A DNA stretch of 64,000 nucleotides from a virus, in the IMG/VR virus record IMGVR_UViG_3300027797_000001, positions 1 to 64,000 of that record; one strand, 5' to 3'. The translations under genes were made by a program, and so were the position numbers. The stretch's first letter is position 1, and every line of letters begins with the position of its first letter. Shown here piece by piece: positions 6,606 through 10,116 of this stretch. Under the pieces are notes generated by a model. That model did no database searches, was not told where the DNA came from, and saw only the letters and a program-made list of their open reading frames with translations.

Positions 6606-6630
6606 ATAAGTGATTTTAGTTAATAAATAG

Positions 6631-6704
<74 letters not shown>

Positions 6705-7296: not shown

Positions 7297-7641
7297 TTAA
7301 AAAGGTAAATCTAAATCAACAGGCTGGATATAATTTTCCATACCTAATACACTATCTAATAGTGCTTGTTTCTGACATGCAAGTTTATGCATCTTAGCAT
7401 TAACTTGATATATTTTGAGTTTTTCAAACCATATCATGTACTTTTCACTTCCTGTTTTATTCCAACCTACAACACCTTCTATTCTATAGAGGTATGGATT
7501 CTTTCTGCTATTGCAGTACATGACATTGAAATCATATTCTTTCCTGATTTCAGCAGCATCTTCAGGTGTAAGGTTCATGTTAAGTTTAATCAGAGTGTGA
7601 CTACCAAATGAATGGTAACCAAAAGGGACAGTTTTATTCAT
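7297..7641 (-). CDS. hypothetical protein (C-terminal DLPF)
   Basis: 114 aa; ends in SSB-like acidic DLPF tail. Confidence 0.7.
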   Translation of the reverse strand: MNKTVPFGYHSFGSHTLIKLNMNLTPEDAAEIRKEYDFNVMYCNSRKNPYLYRIEGVVGWNKTGSEKYMIWFEKLKIYQVNAKMHKLACQKQALLDSVLGMENYIQPVDLDLPF

Positions 7642-7686
7642 AAGTTTATTTTTAAATTGTTAATCATAATATAAAATCATAGTCAC

Positions 7687-7969
7687 CCAGTGACAAGAAT
7701 ATATAGCTAAAGTCAAATTCAAATACTAAGTCAAAGGCCTTCTCTTCTTCAAAGGCAAATACAAATACTAAGTCTCAATGTTAGCCAATTGCATATAATG
7801 CATAACCTGTCTAACGTGGGAGTTCTATCTCAGTTTTTATAGTTTGAAGAGAAGCGGTAATTATTAGTAATTTTAATTTTATAAGTGGTATCACCACAAA
7901 CTTTATTAAAAAAATTCTTGTCACTAGATATAAAGAGTAGAGGAATCAGCTTGTGCCTATCCCCTACTC
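7687..7969 (-). ncRNA. candidate structured RNA downstream of coiled-coil gene
   Basis: Nested inverted repeats 7689-7700/7914-7925 (12 bp perfect), 7739-7747/7846-7854 (9 bp), 7935-7944/7960-7969; duplicated 13-mer CAAATACTAAGTC (7720, 7762) within 6-nt periodic tracts. Confidence 0.6.
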
Positions 7970-7985
7970 ACCTAGTATCAGTACA

Positions 7986-8897
7986 CTATTTTTCAGGTGT
8001 CATGAACAAGTCAATAACTTTCTGAAATCTAGGATCAACATTGATTCTCAATGCTGCAGCAGCTTTAACATCCAACTCTCGTTGAGCATTAAATTCCATA
8101 GTAAGTCTAAGCAACTCACCCTTGTATGCATCCATAGCAAGTCTATATTCTCTGTTAAGAGTTTCTTCAAGACTTAAGAAAGCAGCAGCCATGTCTGCAT
8201 TCTCACGCTGGATCCGTGCATTCTCATCACTAACCAAGTTTTTAACCTTAGCTTTGAAATAGTTTACACGTTGTTCATACTGACGGTGTTGCTCAGCAAT
8301 ATCCTCATGGATTTCTAATAAATCCTGAGAATTATGATGCTTAGTAATCTTAACCGGAGTCTTCTTACCATCCTCTACATTGAACCATTCAATGCTAGGC
8401 ATGTTAGATAACTCTTTTCTAAGACTAGACAACTTACCATTCTTATGGATAAATTGACCCAAGTGAGCTGCCATAGCTTCTGCTTGCAAATATTCTGAGT
8501 ATTCTGCATCAGTAAGCTTAGACCATCCCCATGATTCATCCACAGTATGAATAACATCATAGTCAGGTGCATACTCTCTCTGTGGTTCCACAAGATGAGA
8601 GAAATCAGGACGTGTGTTCTGTATTCTCTCTATCTCAGCATCTTTACCCTTGATAGCTTCCATAAGGAATGCTTGGCAAGCATGGAGATCACCCTTGAAC
8701 TTTAATTTCTCAAGGATATTATCCGGAATCACAGATGGCTCTTGCATCACATAAGACTGCTTGTCTATAACAATAGATTTACTGCAGTTGTTGTAAGATT
8801 CCAACTCACGCTGAATCTCTAAAGCATTTTGATTGCACAAGTTACTAATTGATTGTGCTTGGGACATGCTTAAACCCTTGGTAGATAAATTTCTCAT
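7986..8897 (-). CDS. 303-aa helical/coiled-coil protein of unknown function
   Basis: Long ORF with strong leader; heptad-like Glu/Ala/Leu-rich C-terminal half. Confidence 0.85.
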   Translation of the reverse strand: MRNLSTKGLSMSQAQSISNLCNQNALEIQRELESYNNCSKSIVIDKQSYVMQEPSVIPDNILEKLKFKGDLHACQAFLMEAIKGKDAEIERIQNTRPDFSHLVEPQREYAPDYDVIHTVDESWGWSKLTDAEYSEYLQAEAMAAHLGQFIHKNGKLSSLRKELSNMPSIEWFNVEDGKKTPVKITKHHNSQDLLEIHEDIAEQHRQYEQRVNYFKAKVKNLVSDENARIQRENADMAAAFLSLEETLNREYRLAMDAYKGELLRLTMEFNAQRELDVKAAAALRINVDPRFQKVIDLFMTPEK

Positions 8898-8949
8898 TGT
8901 TTTTGTTTTTGAGAGTTAATAAATAAATTGATTTTTAAGTTGATAAAGT

Positions 8950-8976
8950 GAGTAGTTTAATATCATACTCAGGATA
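8950..8976 (-). repeat. 27-nt repeat copy 1, predicted H-type pseudoknot
   Basis: Minus strand TATCCTGAGTATGATATTAAACTACTC; stems TATC/GATA and GAGTA/TACTC. Confidence 0.7.
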
Positions 8977-9465: not shown

Positions 9466-9857
9466 TTACCCCTCTGCACTCAGTTATAATATCCAATTAC
9501 ATCAATTAGTAATACTCAAAAGTATTATCTATATCAGATTTCTGGCTTATTACAACTGTCTAGCCTTGGGAAGTAGAAATGGTACATTACAAAGGCTTTA
9601 GACTAGTTAGGTCTCACTTACTTACCTTATTTCGAGGTAGCCTTATAAGCAAAGTTGTACTGTCCCCGTTACAGTTCTTTTGCAAGAGAACTGACAAGAT
9701 GACTATTCTTGTAGGAGCTTGGGCAACACGTATTTTAATTTGTACTCTCACAAGGTTGCAATCCTTGGTCATCGGTTTGTATTATCAGGAATCTAAACCC
9801 AATACCTAAGTATTATTAGTTTATCTATCTGTCTGTACCTGCTTGGATGAGAGTATA
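9466..9857 (-). ncRNA. cluster of candidate structured RNAs including a tRNA-like element
   Basis: Stems 9743-9750/9848-9855 plus 5-bp/7-nt T-like arm 9751-9767; 9672-9678/9687-9693; 9481-9490/9549-9558; no convincing minus-strand ORF. Confidence 0.5.
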
Positions 9858-9861
9858 TAAA

Positions 9862-9888
9862 GAGCAGTTTTATATCATGCTTAGGATA
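9862..9888 (-). repeat. 27-nt repeat copy 2 (variant), predicted pseudoknot
   Basis: TATCCTAAGCATGATATAAAACTGCTC; compensatory AGTA/TACT to AGCA/TGCT change. Confidence 0.7.
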
Positions 9889-10089: not shown

Positions 10090-10116
10090 GAGTAGTTTAA
10101 TATCATACTCAGGATA
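10090..10116 (-). repeat. 27-nt repeat copy 3, predicted pseudoknot
   Basis: Identical to 8950-8976. Confidence 0.7.

What the first reader, a model, noticed from the sequence alone, without database searches (positions are those of the whole stretch)
7687..8976. Coiled-coil protein gene coupled to a ~280-nt rod-like RNA with hexamer-periodic tracts: candidate novel RNP system
Directly after the stop of the 303-aa gene the minus strand can form a 10-bp hairpin, then a long rod. The rod has a 12-bp perfect outer stem (7914-7925/7689-7700), a 9-bp middle stem (7846-7854/7739-7747) and apical stems. The 3' side of both big internal loops carries 6-nt units (GACTTA GTATTT GTATTT GCCTTT and GACTTA GTATTT GAATTT GACTTT), including an exact 13-mer duplication; the 5' sides are A-rich. 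The gene's 5' UTR holds a pseudoknot. I recognise no named family. Inference: oligomeric protein subunits bind the repeated units (scaffold, toxin-antitoxin-like or anti-defence decoy RNP).
Basis: partly seen in the sequence, partly recalled or inferred. Interest (0 to 1): 0.8.

Follow-up and report, generated by a model that had tools for sequence, protein, structure and literature searches.

The report
Phage protein plus hexamer-track partner RNA
Right behind a conserved phage gene of unknown fold lies a real, folded RNA of about 300 bases that is in no RNA catalogue and carries two rows of evenly spaced U-U-U-G units; it followed that gene in every related phage I could test, so the two probably work as an undescribed RNA-protein pair whose function is untested.

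Summary
Window 7679-7975 (minus strand) folds better than all shuffles (z -4.6). It belongs to a large family of structured elements: on 57 non-redundant relatives 94% of cells pair (78% in shuffles), and 40 of 43 pairs show compensatory changes. G-U outnumbers A-C 192:38, which points to the gene-sense strand. I add a 3-bp closing helix (P0) that ties the post-stop hairpin to the rod, so the unit is about 297 nt.

Searches that ignored the protein found the RNA in 194 testable loci. All had the 303-aa homologue just upstream on the same strand. The RNA core is more conserved (72-81% identity) than the protein (43-50%). The pair sits beside or inside co-oriented tRNA/tmRNA arrays and occurs in crAss-like 115-kb phages and in 340-675-kb phages.

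There is no Rfam, Pfam, PHROG or PDB match, by sequence or by fold.

Best reading: a dedicated RNP in which protein protomers read the hexamer tracks. VIPR is the closest working analogue, but membership fails.

This scan had already reported the same family in other genomes.

The parts
7986..8897 (-). 303-aa protein gene, the partner of the RNA. Helical bundle with two beta-hairpins. Conserved motifs: GLSMSxAxxISN, AAHIGKFIHK and HRxxExRVNYFKAK.
   Evidence: ORF list. More than 2400 clusters at 90% identity and 463 at 50%. Alignment A3. AF2 pLDDT 89.5, pTM 0.82. No match in Pfam, PHROG, PDB sequences, Foldseek or VIA.
7679..7975 (-). The whole structured RNA, about 297 nt. It is a three-way junction: P0 closes hairpin P1 and the rod P2-P3-P4.
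   Evidence: nhmmer finds a single copy in the 114,922-bp genome at 7679-7974.
7972..7974 (-). P0, 5' strand (UAG).
   Evidence: Pairs with 7680-7682. Alignment columns 4-6 with 454-456: one pair is an invariant G-C, one is paired in 56/56 rows with 15 double changes, and one in 54/57 with 14 double changes. Slid controls give 17-51%.
7680..7682 (-). P0, 3' strand (CUA), inside the conserved tail GGUGACUA and followed by a U-rich stretch.
   Evidence: The terminator-like site 7682-7694 plus a U run was flagged.
7935..7969 (-). P1 hairpin, 14 nt after the stop codon. It has a 10-bp stem, a conserved internal loop and an apical 3-bp stem with an ACAA loop.
   Evidence: All 12 pairs show compensatory changes. 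One pair is mostly G-U or A-U.
7914..7930 (-). P2 outer stem, 5' strand.
   Evidence: 14 of 14 pairs have changes on both sides; 90.6% of cells pair.
7684..7700 (-). P2 outer stem, 3' strand.
7885..7897 (-). Small variable hairpin (P2a) in the length-variable 5' side of the outer internal loop.
   Evidence: Covarying 5-bp stem in the close clade. Replaced by other hairpins in distant lineages.
7846..7856 (-). P3 middle stem, 5' strand, within the conserved ACCGCUUCUCUUC.
   Evidence: 8 of 9 pairs are compensatory; 98.8% of cells pair.
7738..7747 (-). P3 middle stem, 3' strand (GAAGAGAAGG), lying between the two tracks.
7820..7833 (-). CUGAGAUAGAACUC block on the 5' side of the inner loop, identical in 55 of 57 relatives. 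Not explained by the secondary structure.
   Evidence: Replaced only in the two 640-675 kb phage loci.
7780..7815 (-). P4 (GUUAG-A-CAG with UUG-G-CUAAC, including a conserved A/G mismatch) capped by a variable apical hairpin.
   Evidence: 6 of 8 pairs are compensatory; 99.1% of cells pair. The apical hairpin differs in sequence and length and carries a conserved insertion domain in some lineages.
7750..7774 (-). Track 1: four hexamers N-N-U-U-(U/A)-G on the 3' side of the inner loop.
   Evidence: No indels in 57 relatives. U-U-U-G is fixed and the N positions vary.
7707..7737 (-). Track 2: five hexamers on the 3' side of the outer loop, followed by the conserved CUAUAUAUU (7698-7706).
   Evidence: Diversity at N positions is 0.3-0.6, against 0.36 at four-fold codon sites of the neighbouring gene.
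8950..8976 (-). 27-nt hairpin/pseudoknot upstream of the gene. A separate repeated element, followed by a conserved promoter-like AACUUAAAAAUCAAUUUA.
   Evidence: Three copies in the window. Both the stem and the flank-loop pairing covary among relatives.
6630..6704 (-). tRNA-Arg(UCU), the only tRNA of this genome, 975 nt downstream on the same strand (context).

Best explanation
Window 7679-7975 (minus strand) encodes a stand-alone structured non-coding RNA of about 297 nt. It is made from the same strand as the 303-aa gene just upstream, and most likely from the same transcript.

A 3-bp helix (P0) closes a three-way junction. The junction holds a 5' hairpin with a conserved internal loop (P1) and a long rod (P2-P3-P4). 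The 3' strands of the rod's two internal loops present single-stranded tracks of four and five hexamers N-N-U-U-(U/A)-G.

The RNA and the 303-aa protein form a dedicated ribonucleoprotein. Protein protomers, or a protein oligomer, each grip one fixed U-U-N-G unit. The covarying helices act as a ruler that fixes the number and geometry of the units.

The particle acts in trans. It belongs to the tRNA/tmRNA gene block of large phages that probably infect Bacteroidota. Its most likely field of action is therefore translation or RNA take-over, or sequence reading through the exposed variable bases.

Shown here: the RNA fold, its boundaries, the strand, the obligate linkage, and the genomic context.
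Inferred: transcription and processing, protein binding, stoichiometry and function.
For: Fold:
- z -4.56.
- 94.3% of cells pair against 78% in shuffles; 40 of 43 pairs are compensatory.
- P0 closing helix.

Strand:
- 192 G-U cells against 38 A-C cells. 94.3% pair on the sense strand, 88.0% on the antisense strand.

Linkage:
- Searches made with the invariant 14-mer and with a gapped RNA pattern, blind to the protein, found 106/106 viral and 88/88 metagenomic testable loci with the homologue on the same strand.
- The stop codon usually lies 2-26 nt before the RNA.
- No other neighbouring gene is shared across lineages.

Conservation:
- The RNA core is 72-81% identical where the protein is 43-50% identical.
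- Track length has no indels in 57 relatives.
- A distant homologue in GenBank PQ006092.1 is followed by an analogous post-stop hairpin, a 16-bp closing stem and five U-N-G triplets at 6-nt spacing (z -4.3).

Context:
- 211 tRNAs on the same strand and none on the opposite strand in the held loci. The module usually sits at the end of the array.
- A tmRNA lies directly upstream in L183.
- In two of the 57 loci an ARAGORN-called tRNA-like gene (no amino-acid assignment) starts 6 nt after the RNA end.

Precedent for one protomer per short repeat: TRAP and HutP (established knowledge) and Vipr-vrRNA (bioRxiv 10.64898/2026.04.26.720920).
Against: - No expression data.
- No binding or oligomer test. 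The complex predictor was closed.
- The protein has no recognisable RNA-binding domain, by sequence or by fold.
- Gene linkage does not prove physical binding.
- The variable N positions evolve at about the neutral rate. That fits plain spacers as well as any code.
- The invariant blocks in the loops could instead mean RNA tertiary structure or catalysis without the protein.
Confidence: 0.55

Rival explanations
1. The RNA works on a host factor rather than on its neighbour. It would be a sponge or decoy, for example for a host single-strand RNA-binding protein. Alternatively it could act in 6S-RNA style on the Bacteroidota sigma-A RNA polymerase. Overlapping hexamers read U-G-n-n-U-U-U-G, one base away from the host -7 box TAnnTTTG. 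The 303-aa protein would be a helper or a separately acting factor.
For: - Rod shape with large internal loops.
- The phage is crAss-like by TerL, and the matching phages have Bacteroides, Flavobacterium or Cellulophaga hosts.
- The RNA is more conserved than the protein.
- The near-match to the -7 box is read from the sequence. The consensus itself comes from established knowledge of Bacteroides promoters.
Against: - No hit to 6S or 6S-Flavo models even at E <= 10.
- The best-conserved A of the -7 box is a G in every unit.
- The distant relative keeps only U-N-G.
- Obligate linkage to one protein family (194/194) is not needed for a pure host decoy.
Confidence: 0.15
2. A VIPR-like guide. Protomers clamp the fixed U-U-N-G and expose the variable bases. 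Those bases together read a gapped target in a competing phage or in the host.
For: - Fixed/variable alternation with a strict period.
- The variable positions are the most diverse columns of the conserved core.
- VIPR shows that such a code exists in phages, including variants with a fixed repeat number.
Against: - The protein shows no RAMP/RRM signature.
- The period is 6, not 5.
- There are only 9 units, with one or two free bases each.
- Track 1 is nearly constant within the clade.
- Diversity at N positions is about neutral.
- No target was found in the phage's own genome under skip rules 0-4 apart from the locus itself.
Confidence: 0.1
3. A cis-acting part of the operon transcript: a 3'-UTR stabiliser, terminator, exonuclease block or processing platform for the gene or for the tRNA array. 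There would be no trans function.
For: - It starts a few bases after the stop codon.
- A U-rich stretch follows P0/P2.
- It lies within co-oriented tRNA units that need processing.
Against: - 300 nt with invariant loop blocks and fixed hexamer tracks is far more than such roles need.
- The downstream neighbour varies between ORFs, tRNAs and inserts of 160-1180 nt, while the RNA stays the same.
Confidence: 0.08
4. A DNA-level element: a replication origin or single-strand initiation site with iteron-like repeats, served by the adjacent protein as initiator.
For: - Strict pairing of a protein gene with a neighbouring repeat-bearing, AT-rich structured element.
- In the window it lies in a block with helicase and ParB-like genes.
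- The duplicated 13-mers lie about 36 bp apart.
Against: - A 5:1 excess of G-U over A-C shows folding of one particular strand, always the transcribed one.
- Nested long-range helices are unlike protein-bound palindromes.
- The 6-nt period does not fit the DNA helical repeat.
- It is embedded in tRNA/tmRNA arrays in other phages.
Confidence: 0.07
5. A type III toxin-antitoxin-like or abortive pair, in which the RNA neutralises a toxic protein.
For: A protein plus a repeat-bearing RNA encoded side by side.
Against: - The RNA lies downstream, not upstream, of the protein gene.
- There is no tandem ~36-nt array.
- The only hit in 185,579 bacterial and archaeal species genomes is a 3.7-kb contig of a metagenome bin.
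- It is carried by lytic-type large phages with terminal repeats.
- No PADLOC scan was run.
Confidence: 0.05

Closest known systems
VIPR systems (Vipr protein + vrRNA; bioRxiv 10.64898/2026.04.26.720920 and 10.64898/2026.04.26.720927)
   Same: Phage-encoded. A short fixed motif alternates with variable bases at a strict period in an RNA encoded next to its protein, together with a structured conserved part. In VIPR, protomers polymerise along the repeats.
   Different: The period here is 6 (N-N-U-U-N-G), not 5 (Y-N-N-G-G). There are two short tracks (4 + 5 units) set inside a 300-nt rod, not a ~100-nt RNA with 9-16 repeats and a tail. The protein shows no RAMP/RRM features. There is no accessory vap gene. 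The N positions are not clearly hypervariable.
TRAP and HutP with their triplet-repeat RNA sites (established knowledge)
   Same: U/G-A-G-type triplets spaced by 2-4 unconserved bases, each read by one subunit of an oligomer. Here U-(U/A)-G triplets have 3-nt spacers.
   Different: Those are bacterial attenuation proteins with beta-rich ring folds that act on mRNA leaders. Here the RNA is a stand-alone structured phage RNA and the protein is helical with no Pfam match.
GOLLD, ROOL and the stable species 1/2 RNAs of the phage T4 tRNA cluster
   Same: Large or stable phage RNAs of unknown function encoded beside tRNA genes.
   Different: No Rfam match to GOLLD or ROOL. Those have no dedicated protein partner and no hexamer tracks. 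The T4 RNAs could not be compared here.
6S RNA
   Same: A rod-like RNA with large internal loops, closed by a long terminal stem.
   Different: No hit to the 6S or 6S-Flavo models. 6S has no repeat tracks and no dedicated protein gene.
Bacterial and phage Ro60/Y-RNA modules
   Same: A rod RNA with internal loops encoded next to its binding protein, often near tRNA genes.
   Different: No TROVE/vWA protein, no Y-RNA model hit, no tRNA-like domain.

Membership tests
Any Rfam 15 family (incl. GOLLD, ROOL, 6S, 6S-Flavo, Y RNA, tmRNA, RNase P, ribozymes) | Score at or above the family's gathering threshold | tested here: not met
   The whole window at gathering threshold gives only tRNA-Arg. Region 7500-8100 at E <= 10 gives three chance-level hits to eukaryotic families.
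VIPR | Vipr protein with RAMP features (RRM core, G-loop, thumb) | tested here: inconclusive
   The AF2 model is helices plus two beta-hairpins, with no beta-alpha-beta-beta-alpha-beta unit. No Cas or RAMP chain appears among the listed Foldseek or VIA matches. A missing fold match does not exclude a relationship.
VIPR | vrRNA with at least 4 tandem 5-nt repeats YNNGG or a related pentamer | tested here: not met
   The repeats are hexamers N-N-U-U-(U/A)-G, in two tracks of 4 and 5 units.
VIPR | Hypervariable NN that match natural targets under a skip rule | tested here: inconclusive
   N diversity is 0.3-0.6, against 0.36 at four-fold sites. There is no self-target under skip rules 0-4. Foreign targets are not searchable with so little information.
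TRAP-type triplet-repeat RNA binding | Repeated (G/U)AG-like triplets with 2-3 nt spacers in the RNA | tested here: met
   U-(U/A)-G every 6 nt, in runs of 4 and 5, conserved without indels. U-N-G x5 in the distant relative.
TRAP-type triplet-repeat RNA binding | TRAP (TrpBP) or HutP protein family | tested here: not met
   No Pfam family reaches its curated cut-off for the window protein; among the other 33 members the best hit is a single protein to an unrelated coiled-coil family at E 1e-4.
6S RNA | Match to the covariance model; binds the RNA polymerase holoenzyme and templates pRNA | tested here: not met
   No model match. The binding part is not testable with these tools.
Type III toxin-antitoxin | Tandem array of ~36-nt repeats upstream of an endoRNase toxin gene | tested here: not met
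   The RNA is downstream and has no such array. The only hit in the bacterial and archaeal species genomes is a 3.7-kb contig of a metagenome bin.
tRNA / tmRNA | Detected by ARAGORN or by the Rfam tRNA clan | tested here: not met
   A true tmRNA lies separately upstream of the module in L183.
Ro60/Y RNA | TROVE-domain protein and a Y-RNA model match | tested here: not met
   No Pfam hit. No Rfam hit.

The most novel reading that the evidence does not exclude
The pair is a new class of repeat-reading RNP with VIPR-like logic, built on an unrelated, non-RAMP helical protein and a 6-nt register. Protomers clamp U-U-N-G, and the exposed variable bases of the nine units read a gapped nucleic-acid target. 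It is carried by phages ranging from 115-kb crAss-like genomes to 675-kb genomes. That would be a second, independent invention of noncontiguous RNA-guided recognition.
Probability: 0.1. Interest if true: 0.95.

Novelty: categorically new. Interest (0 to 1): 0.75.

Why it matters
The family is large. The protein has more than 2400 clusters at 90% identity and 463 at 50%. The RNA turned up in every testable locus of two large collections.

It spans very different phages, from crAss-like 115-kb genomes to 640-675-kb genomes. Neither partner is in Pfam, PHROGs, PDB or Rfam.

An RNA that is better conserved than its partner protein, has a fixed number of phased repeats and sits in the tRNA/tmRNA block points to a core activity of large aquatic phages. 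It could be a new RNP, a ribozyme with a cofactor, or a host take-over RNA.

The unit is short (1.3 kb), self-contained and directly testable by expression and pull-down.

Tried and rejected
- The look-up of encoding contigs.
- Complex prediction for a homo-oligomer.
- The look-up of sequencing runs.

So there is no expression, oligomer or extra-context evidence.

Searches that gave nothing usable:
P0173 found nothing.
- GenBank phages have no DNA or protein match for the window pair or for the L024/L178 variants.
- Bacterial species genomes: the protein scan was empty. Of 22 RNA-pattern hits, 21 were chance.
- The ESM Atlas had no usable neighbour.
- Fold searches gave only generic helical matches: Foldseek best E 0.011, VIA Z <= 7.5.

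Readings considered and dropped:
- The tracks as a coding frame. The frame is open, but U-U-U never alternates with U-U-C and codon positions 2-3 vary.
- Pairing of CUGAG (7829-7833) with CUUAG of track 1. CUUAG varies without compensation.
- The small hairpin 7682-7694 as a conserved alternative to P2. It is broken in several lineages.
- A covariation scan for partners of the track bases gave only phylogenetic noise apart from P0.
- The capsid protein of the window phage is not found in five other carrier phages, so the carriers are not one phage lineage.

Full report
**Setting.** The window is the first 64 kb of a 114,922-bp virus record with direct terminal repeats. TerL, portal and capsid match phage families. 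TerL is about 25% identical to crAss-like phages of Bacteroides, Flavobacterium and Cellulophaga. The carrier is therefore a divergent crAss-like phage, probably of a Bacteroidota host. Genes from 1 to about 11.5 kb run on the minus strand.

**Observation.** The 344-nt gap between the 303-aa ORF (7986-8897) and the next ORF (7297-7641) folds to -82.8 kcal/mol. Shuffles give -62.9 +/- 4.4 (z -4.56). Four or more phased TT(T/A)G hexamers occur nowhere else in the genome.

**Conservation and structure.** Twenty related viral loci found through the protein all keep a gap of 320-360 nt with blocks of near-identity, although the downstream gene differs.

RNAalifold on 16, 46 and then 57 non-redundant sequences (at most 95% identical) gave the same helices. 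On the 57 sequences:
- 94.3% of cells pair, against 78.0% in column shuffles (0/500) and 38-51% when partners are slid.
- 40 of 43 pairs have changes on both sides.
- G-U cells outnumber A-C cells 192 to 38. The fold is therefore that of the gene-sense strand: 94.3% paired, against 88.0% on the other strand.

A scan for further covarying columns gave one clear new helix, P0 (7972-7974 with 7680-7682). One of its pairs is an invariant G-C. The other two are paired in 56/56 and 54/57 rows, with 15 and 14 double changes.

P0 joins the hairpin after the stop codon (P1) to the rod. P1 is therefore part of the RNA and not merely the gene's terminator. The unit is bounded at about 7975 and 7679.

**The tracks.** The 3' strands of the two internal loops carry four and five hexamers N-N-U-U-(U/A)-G.
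- Across 57 relatives the tracks have no indels.
- U-U-U-G is fixed, and one or two N positions per unit vary.
- The diversity at N positions (0.3-0.6) is about that of four-fold codon sites in the neighbouring gene (0.36). This fits unconstrained spacers. It neither supports nor excludes a code.
- The opposite 5' strands vary in length, so the tracks are not consistently paired with them.
- Other loop blocks are essentially invariant and are unexplained by the secondary structure, above all CUGAGAUAGAACUC (7820-7833).

**Linkage.** I searched viral contigs with the invariant 14-mer and with a gapped RNA pattern, both blind to the protein. I then scored all held loci with an RNA profile and a protein profile.
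- 110 loci have the RNA.
- All 106 with enough upstream sequence have the homologue on the same strand. The stop codon lies 4-26 nt before the RNA in most. About a dozen loci, mostly copies of two variants, show gaps of 120-170 nt by the profile hit, and four loci have inserts of 300-750 nt.
- The same pattern in metagenome contigs gave 100 RNAs: 88 of 88 testable were linked and 12 were cut by contig ends. The two collections overlap in origin.
- No other neighbouring gene family is shared across lineages.
- Where the protein is 43-50% identical to the window's, the RNA core is still 72-81% identical.
- A far relative in GenBank, PQ006092.1 from rodent faeces, has diverged beyond profile recognition. 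It keeps a post-stop hairpin, a perfect 16-bp closing stem and five U-N-G triplets at 6-nt spacing (z -4.3). A 58-aa CDS is annotated over it.

**Context.**
- In many lineages the pair sits at the end of, or inside, arrays of 5-25 co-oriented tRNA genes. In the 57 held loci there are 211 tRNAs on the same strand and none on the opposite strand.
- In L183 a tmRNA lies directly upstream.
- In two of the 57 loci an ARAGORN-called tRNA-like gene with no amino-acid assignment begins 6 nt after the RNA; if RNase P cuts there, that would set the RNA's 3' end.
- Carriers include records of 343-373 kb and 640-675 kb. Two of these four have terminal repeats, and none has ribosomal protein L2, so they are huge phages and not host DNA.
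- They lack the window's capsid protein, so the module crosses phage lineages.
- Its only hit in 185,579 bacterial and archaeal species genomes is a 3.7-kb contig of a metagenome bin.
- The close family is absent from deposited phage genomes.

**The protein.**
- It has more than 2400 clusters at 90% identity and 463 at 50%, nearly all about 300 aa long.
- AF2 with a 34-sequence alignment gives pLDDT 89.5 and pTM 0.82. The order of elements is helix, beta-hairpin, long helix; then helices, beta-hairpin and a 50-residue helix that folds back on another helix.
- Invariant residues are N19, G147, H204 and N212. Conserved basic motifs are AAHIGKFIHK and HRxxExRVNYFKAK.
- Pfam and PHROGs give no hit at or above a curated cut-off or significance limit, and PDB sequence and profile searches give only chance-level hits (best E 0.015).
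- Foldseek against PDB has no match at E <= 0.001. BFVD returns only a member of the same family. The wide VIA search gives generic helical matches with Z <= 7.5.

**Interpretation.** The data establish a new structured RNA family and an obligate RNA-protein gene pair. I read it as a dedicated RNP in which protomers grip the fixed U-U-N-G units and the helices set the number and geometry of units (confidence 0.55).

The precedents are TRAP and HutP, which read triplets with unconserved spacers, and the phage VIPR system. In VIPR, Vipr protomers polymerise on GGY/NN pentamer repeats and the variable bases read DNA. Membership in VIPR fails on the repeat and is unsupported for the protein. A self-target search under skip rules 0-4 found only the locus itself.

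The rivals are a host-factor decoy, a VIPR-like guide, a cis element, a DNA-level origin and a toxin-antitoxin pair. They are listed separately with their odds.

**What was not shown.** Transcription, RNA ends, binding, oligomer state and function were not tested.

**Earlier work in this scan.** Earlier follow-ups in this scan reported the same family in other genomes, and one of them gave me the VIPR lead. I checked that paper myself. Those notes are not independent evidence. As far as the short notes show, the additions here are helix P0, the strand asymmetry count, the blind linkage counts in two collections, the spread to 640-675-kb phages and the GenBank analogue.

Noticed in passing
window 8950-8976, 9850-9876 and about 10090-10116, minus strand: There are three copies of a 27-nt element, UAUCCUGAGUAUGAUAUUAAACUACUC. 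One copy carries compensating changes in the stem. In relatives both the stem and a pairing between the 5' flank and the loop covary, so it is a small pseudoknot. It often precedes the 303-aa gene and has no Rfam match.
   Followed up: partly
window 8905-8935, minus strand, and the same place in L003-L176: A conserved promoter-like box AACUUAAAAAUCAAUUUA lies about 25-40 nt before the start codon of the 303-aa gene. It does not match the Bacteroidota TAnnTTTG box and may be a phage-polymerase promoter.
   Followed up: no
L206 3418-3594 (GenBank PQ006092.1, CDS XHH63432.1): A 58-aa 'hypothetical protein' is annotated over what looks like the structured RNA partner of the upstream homologue. It is probably a false gene call.
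   Followed up: partly
L183 2424-2866: A phage-encoded tmRNA (Rfam, 91.9 bits) sits directly upstream of the protein-RNA module.
   Followed up: no
L047 1745-1822: A suppressor-type tRNA with anticodon UUA, which reads the stop codon UAA, lies in a carrier phage. This hints at stop-codon recoding in some carriers.
   Followed up: no
L024, L059, L081, L133 (alignment A4, columns 278-325): A conserved insertion of about 45 nt (CUGAAA...GAGAAAGAGGAAUCUUUACCACUAGACAGAUAA) replaces the simple apical hairpin in one group of large-phage RNAs. It is an extra domain.
   Followed up: no
L020 and L021 (records of 675,678 and 639,979 bp): These huge phage records carry the module but replace the otherwise invariant CUGAGAUAGAACUC with a U-rich/A-rich hairpin. 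One record has terminal repeats, and neither has ribosomal protein L2.
   Followed up: partly
L032, L058, L123, L138 and several metagenome loci: Inserts of 160-1180 nt lie between the protein stop codon and the RNA in a minority of loci. They may be mobile genes; their content was not examined.
   Followed up: no
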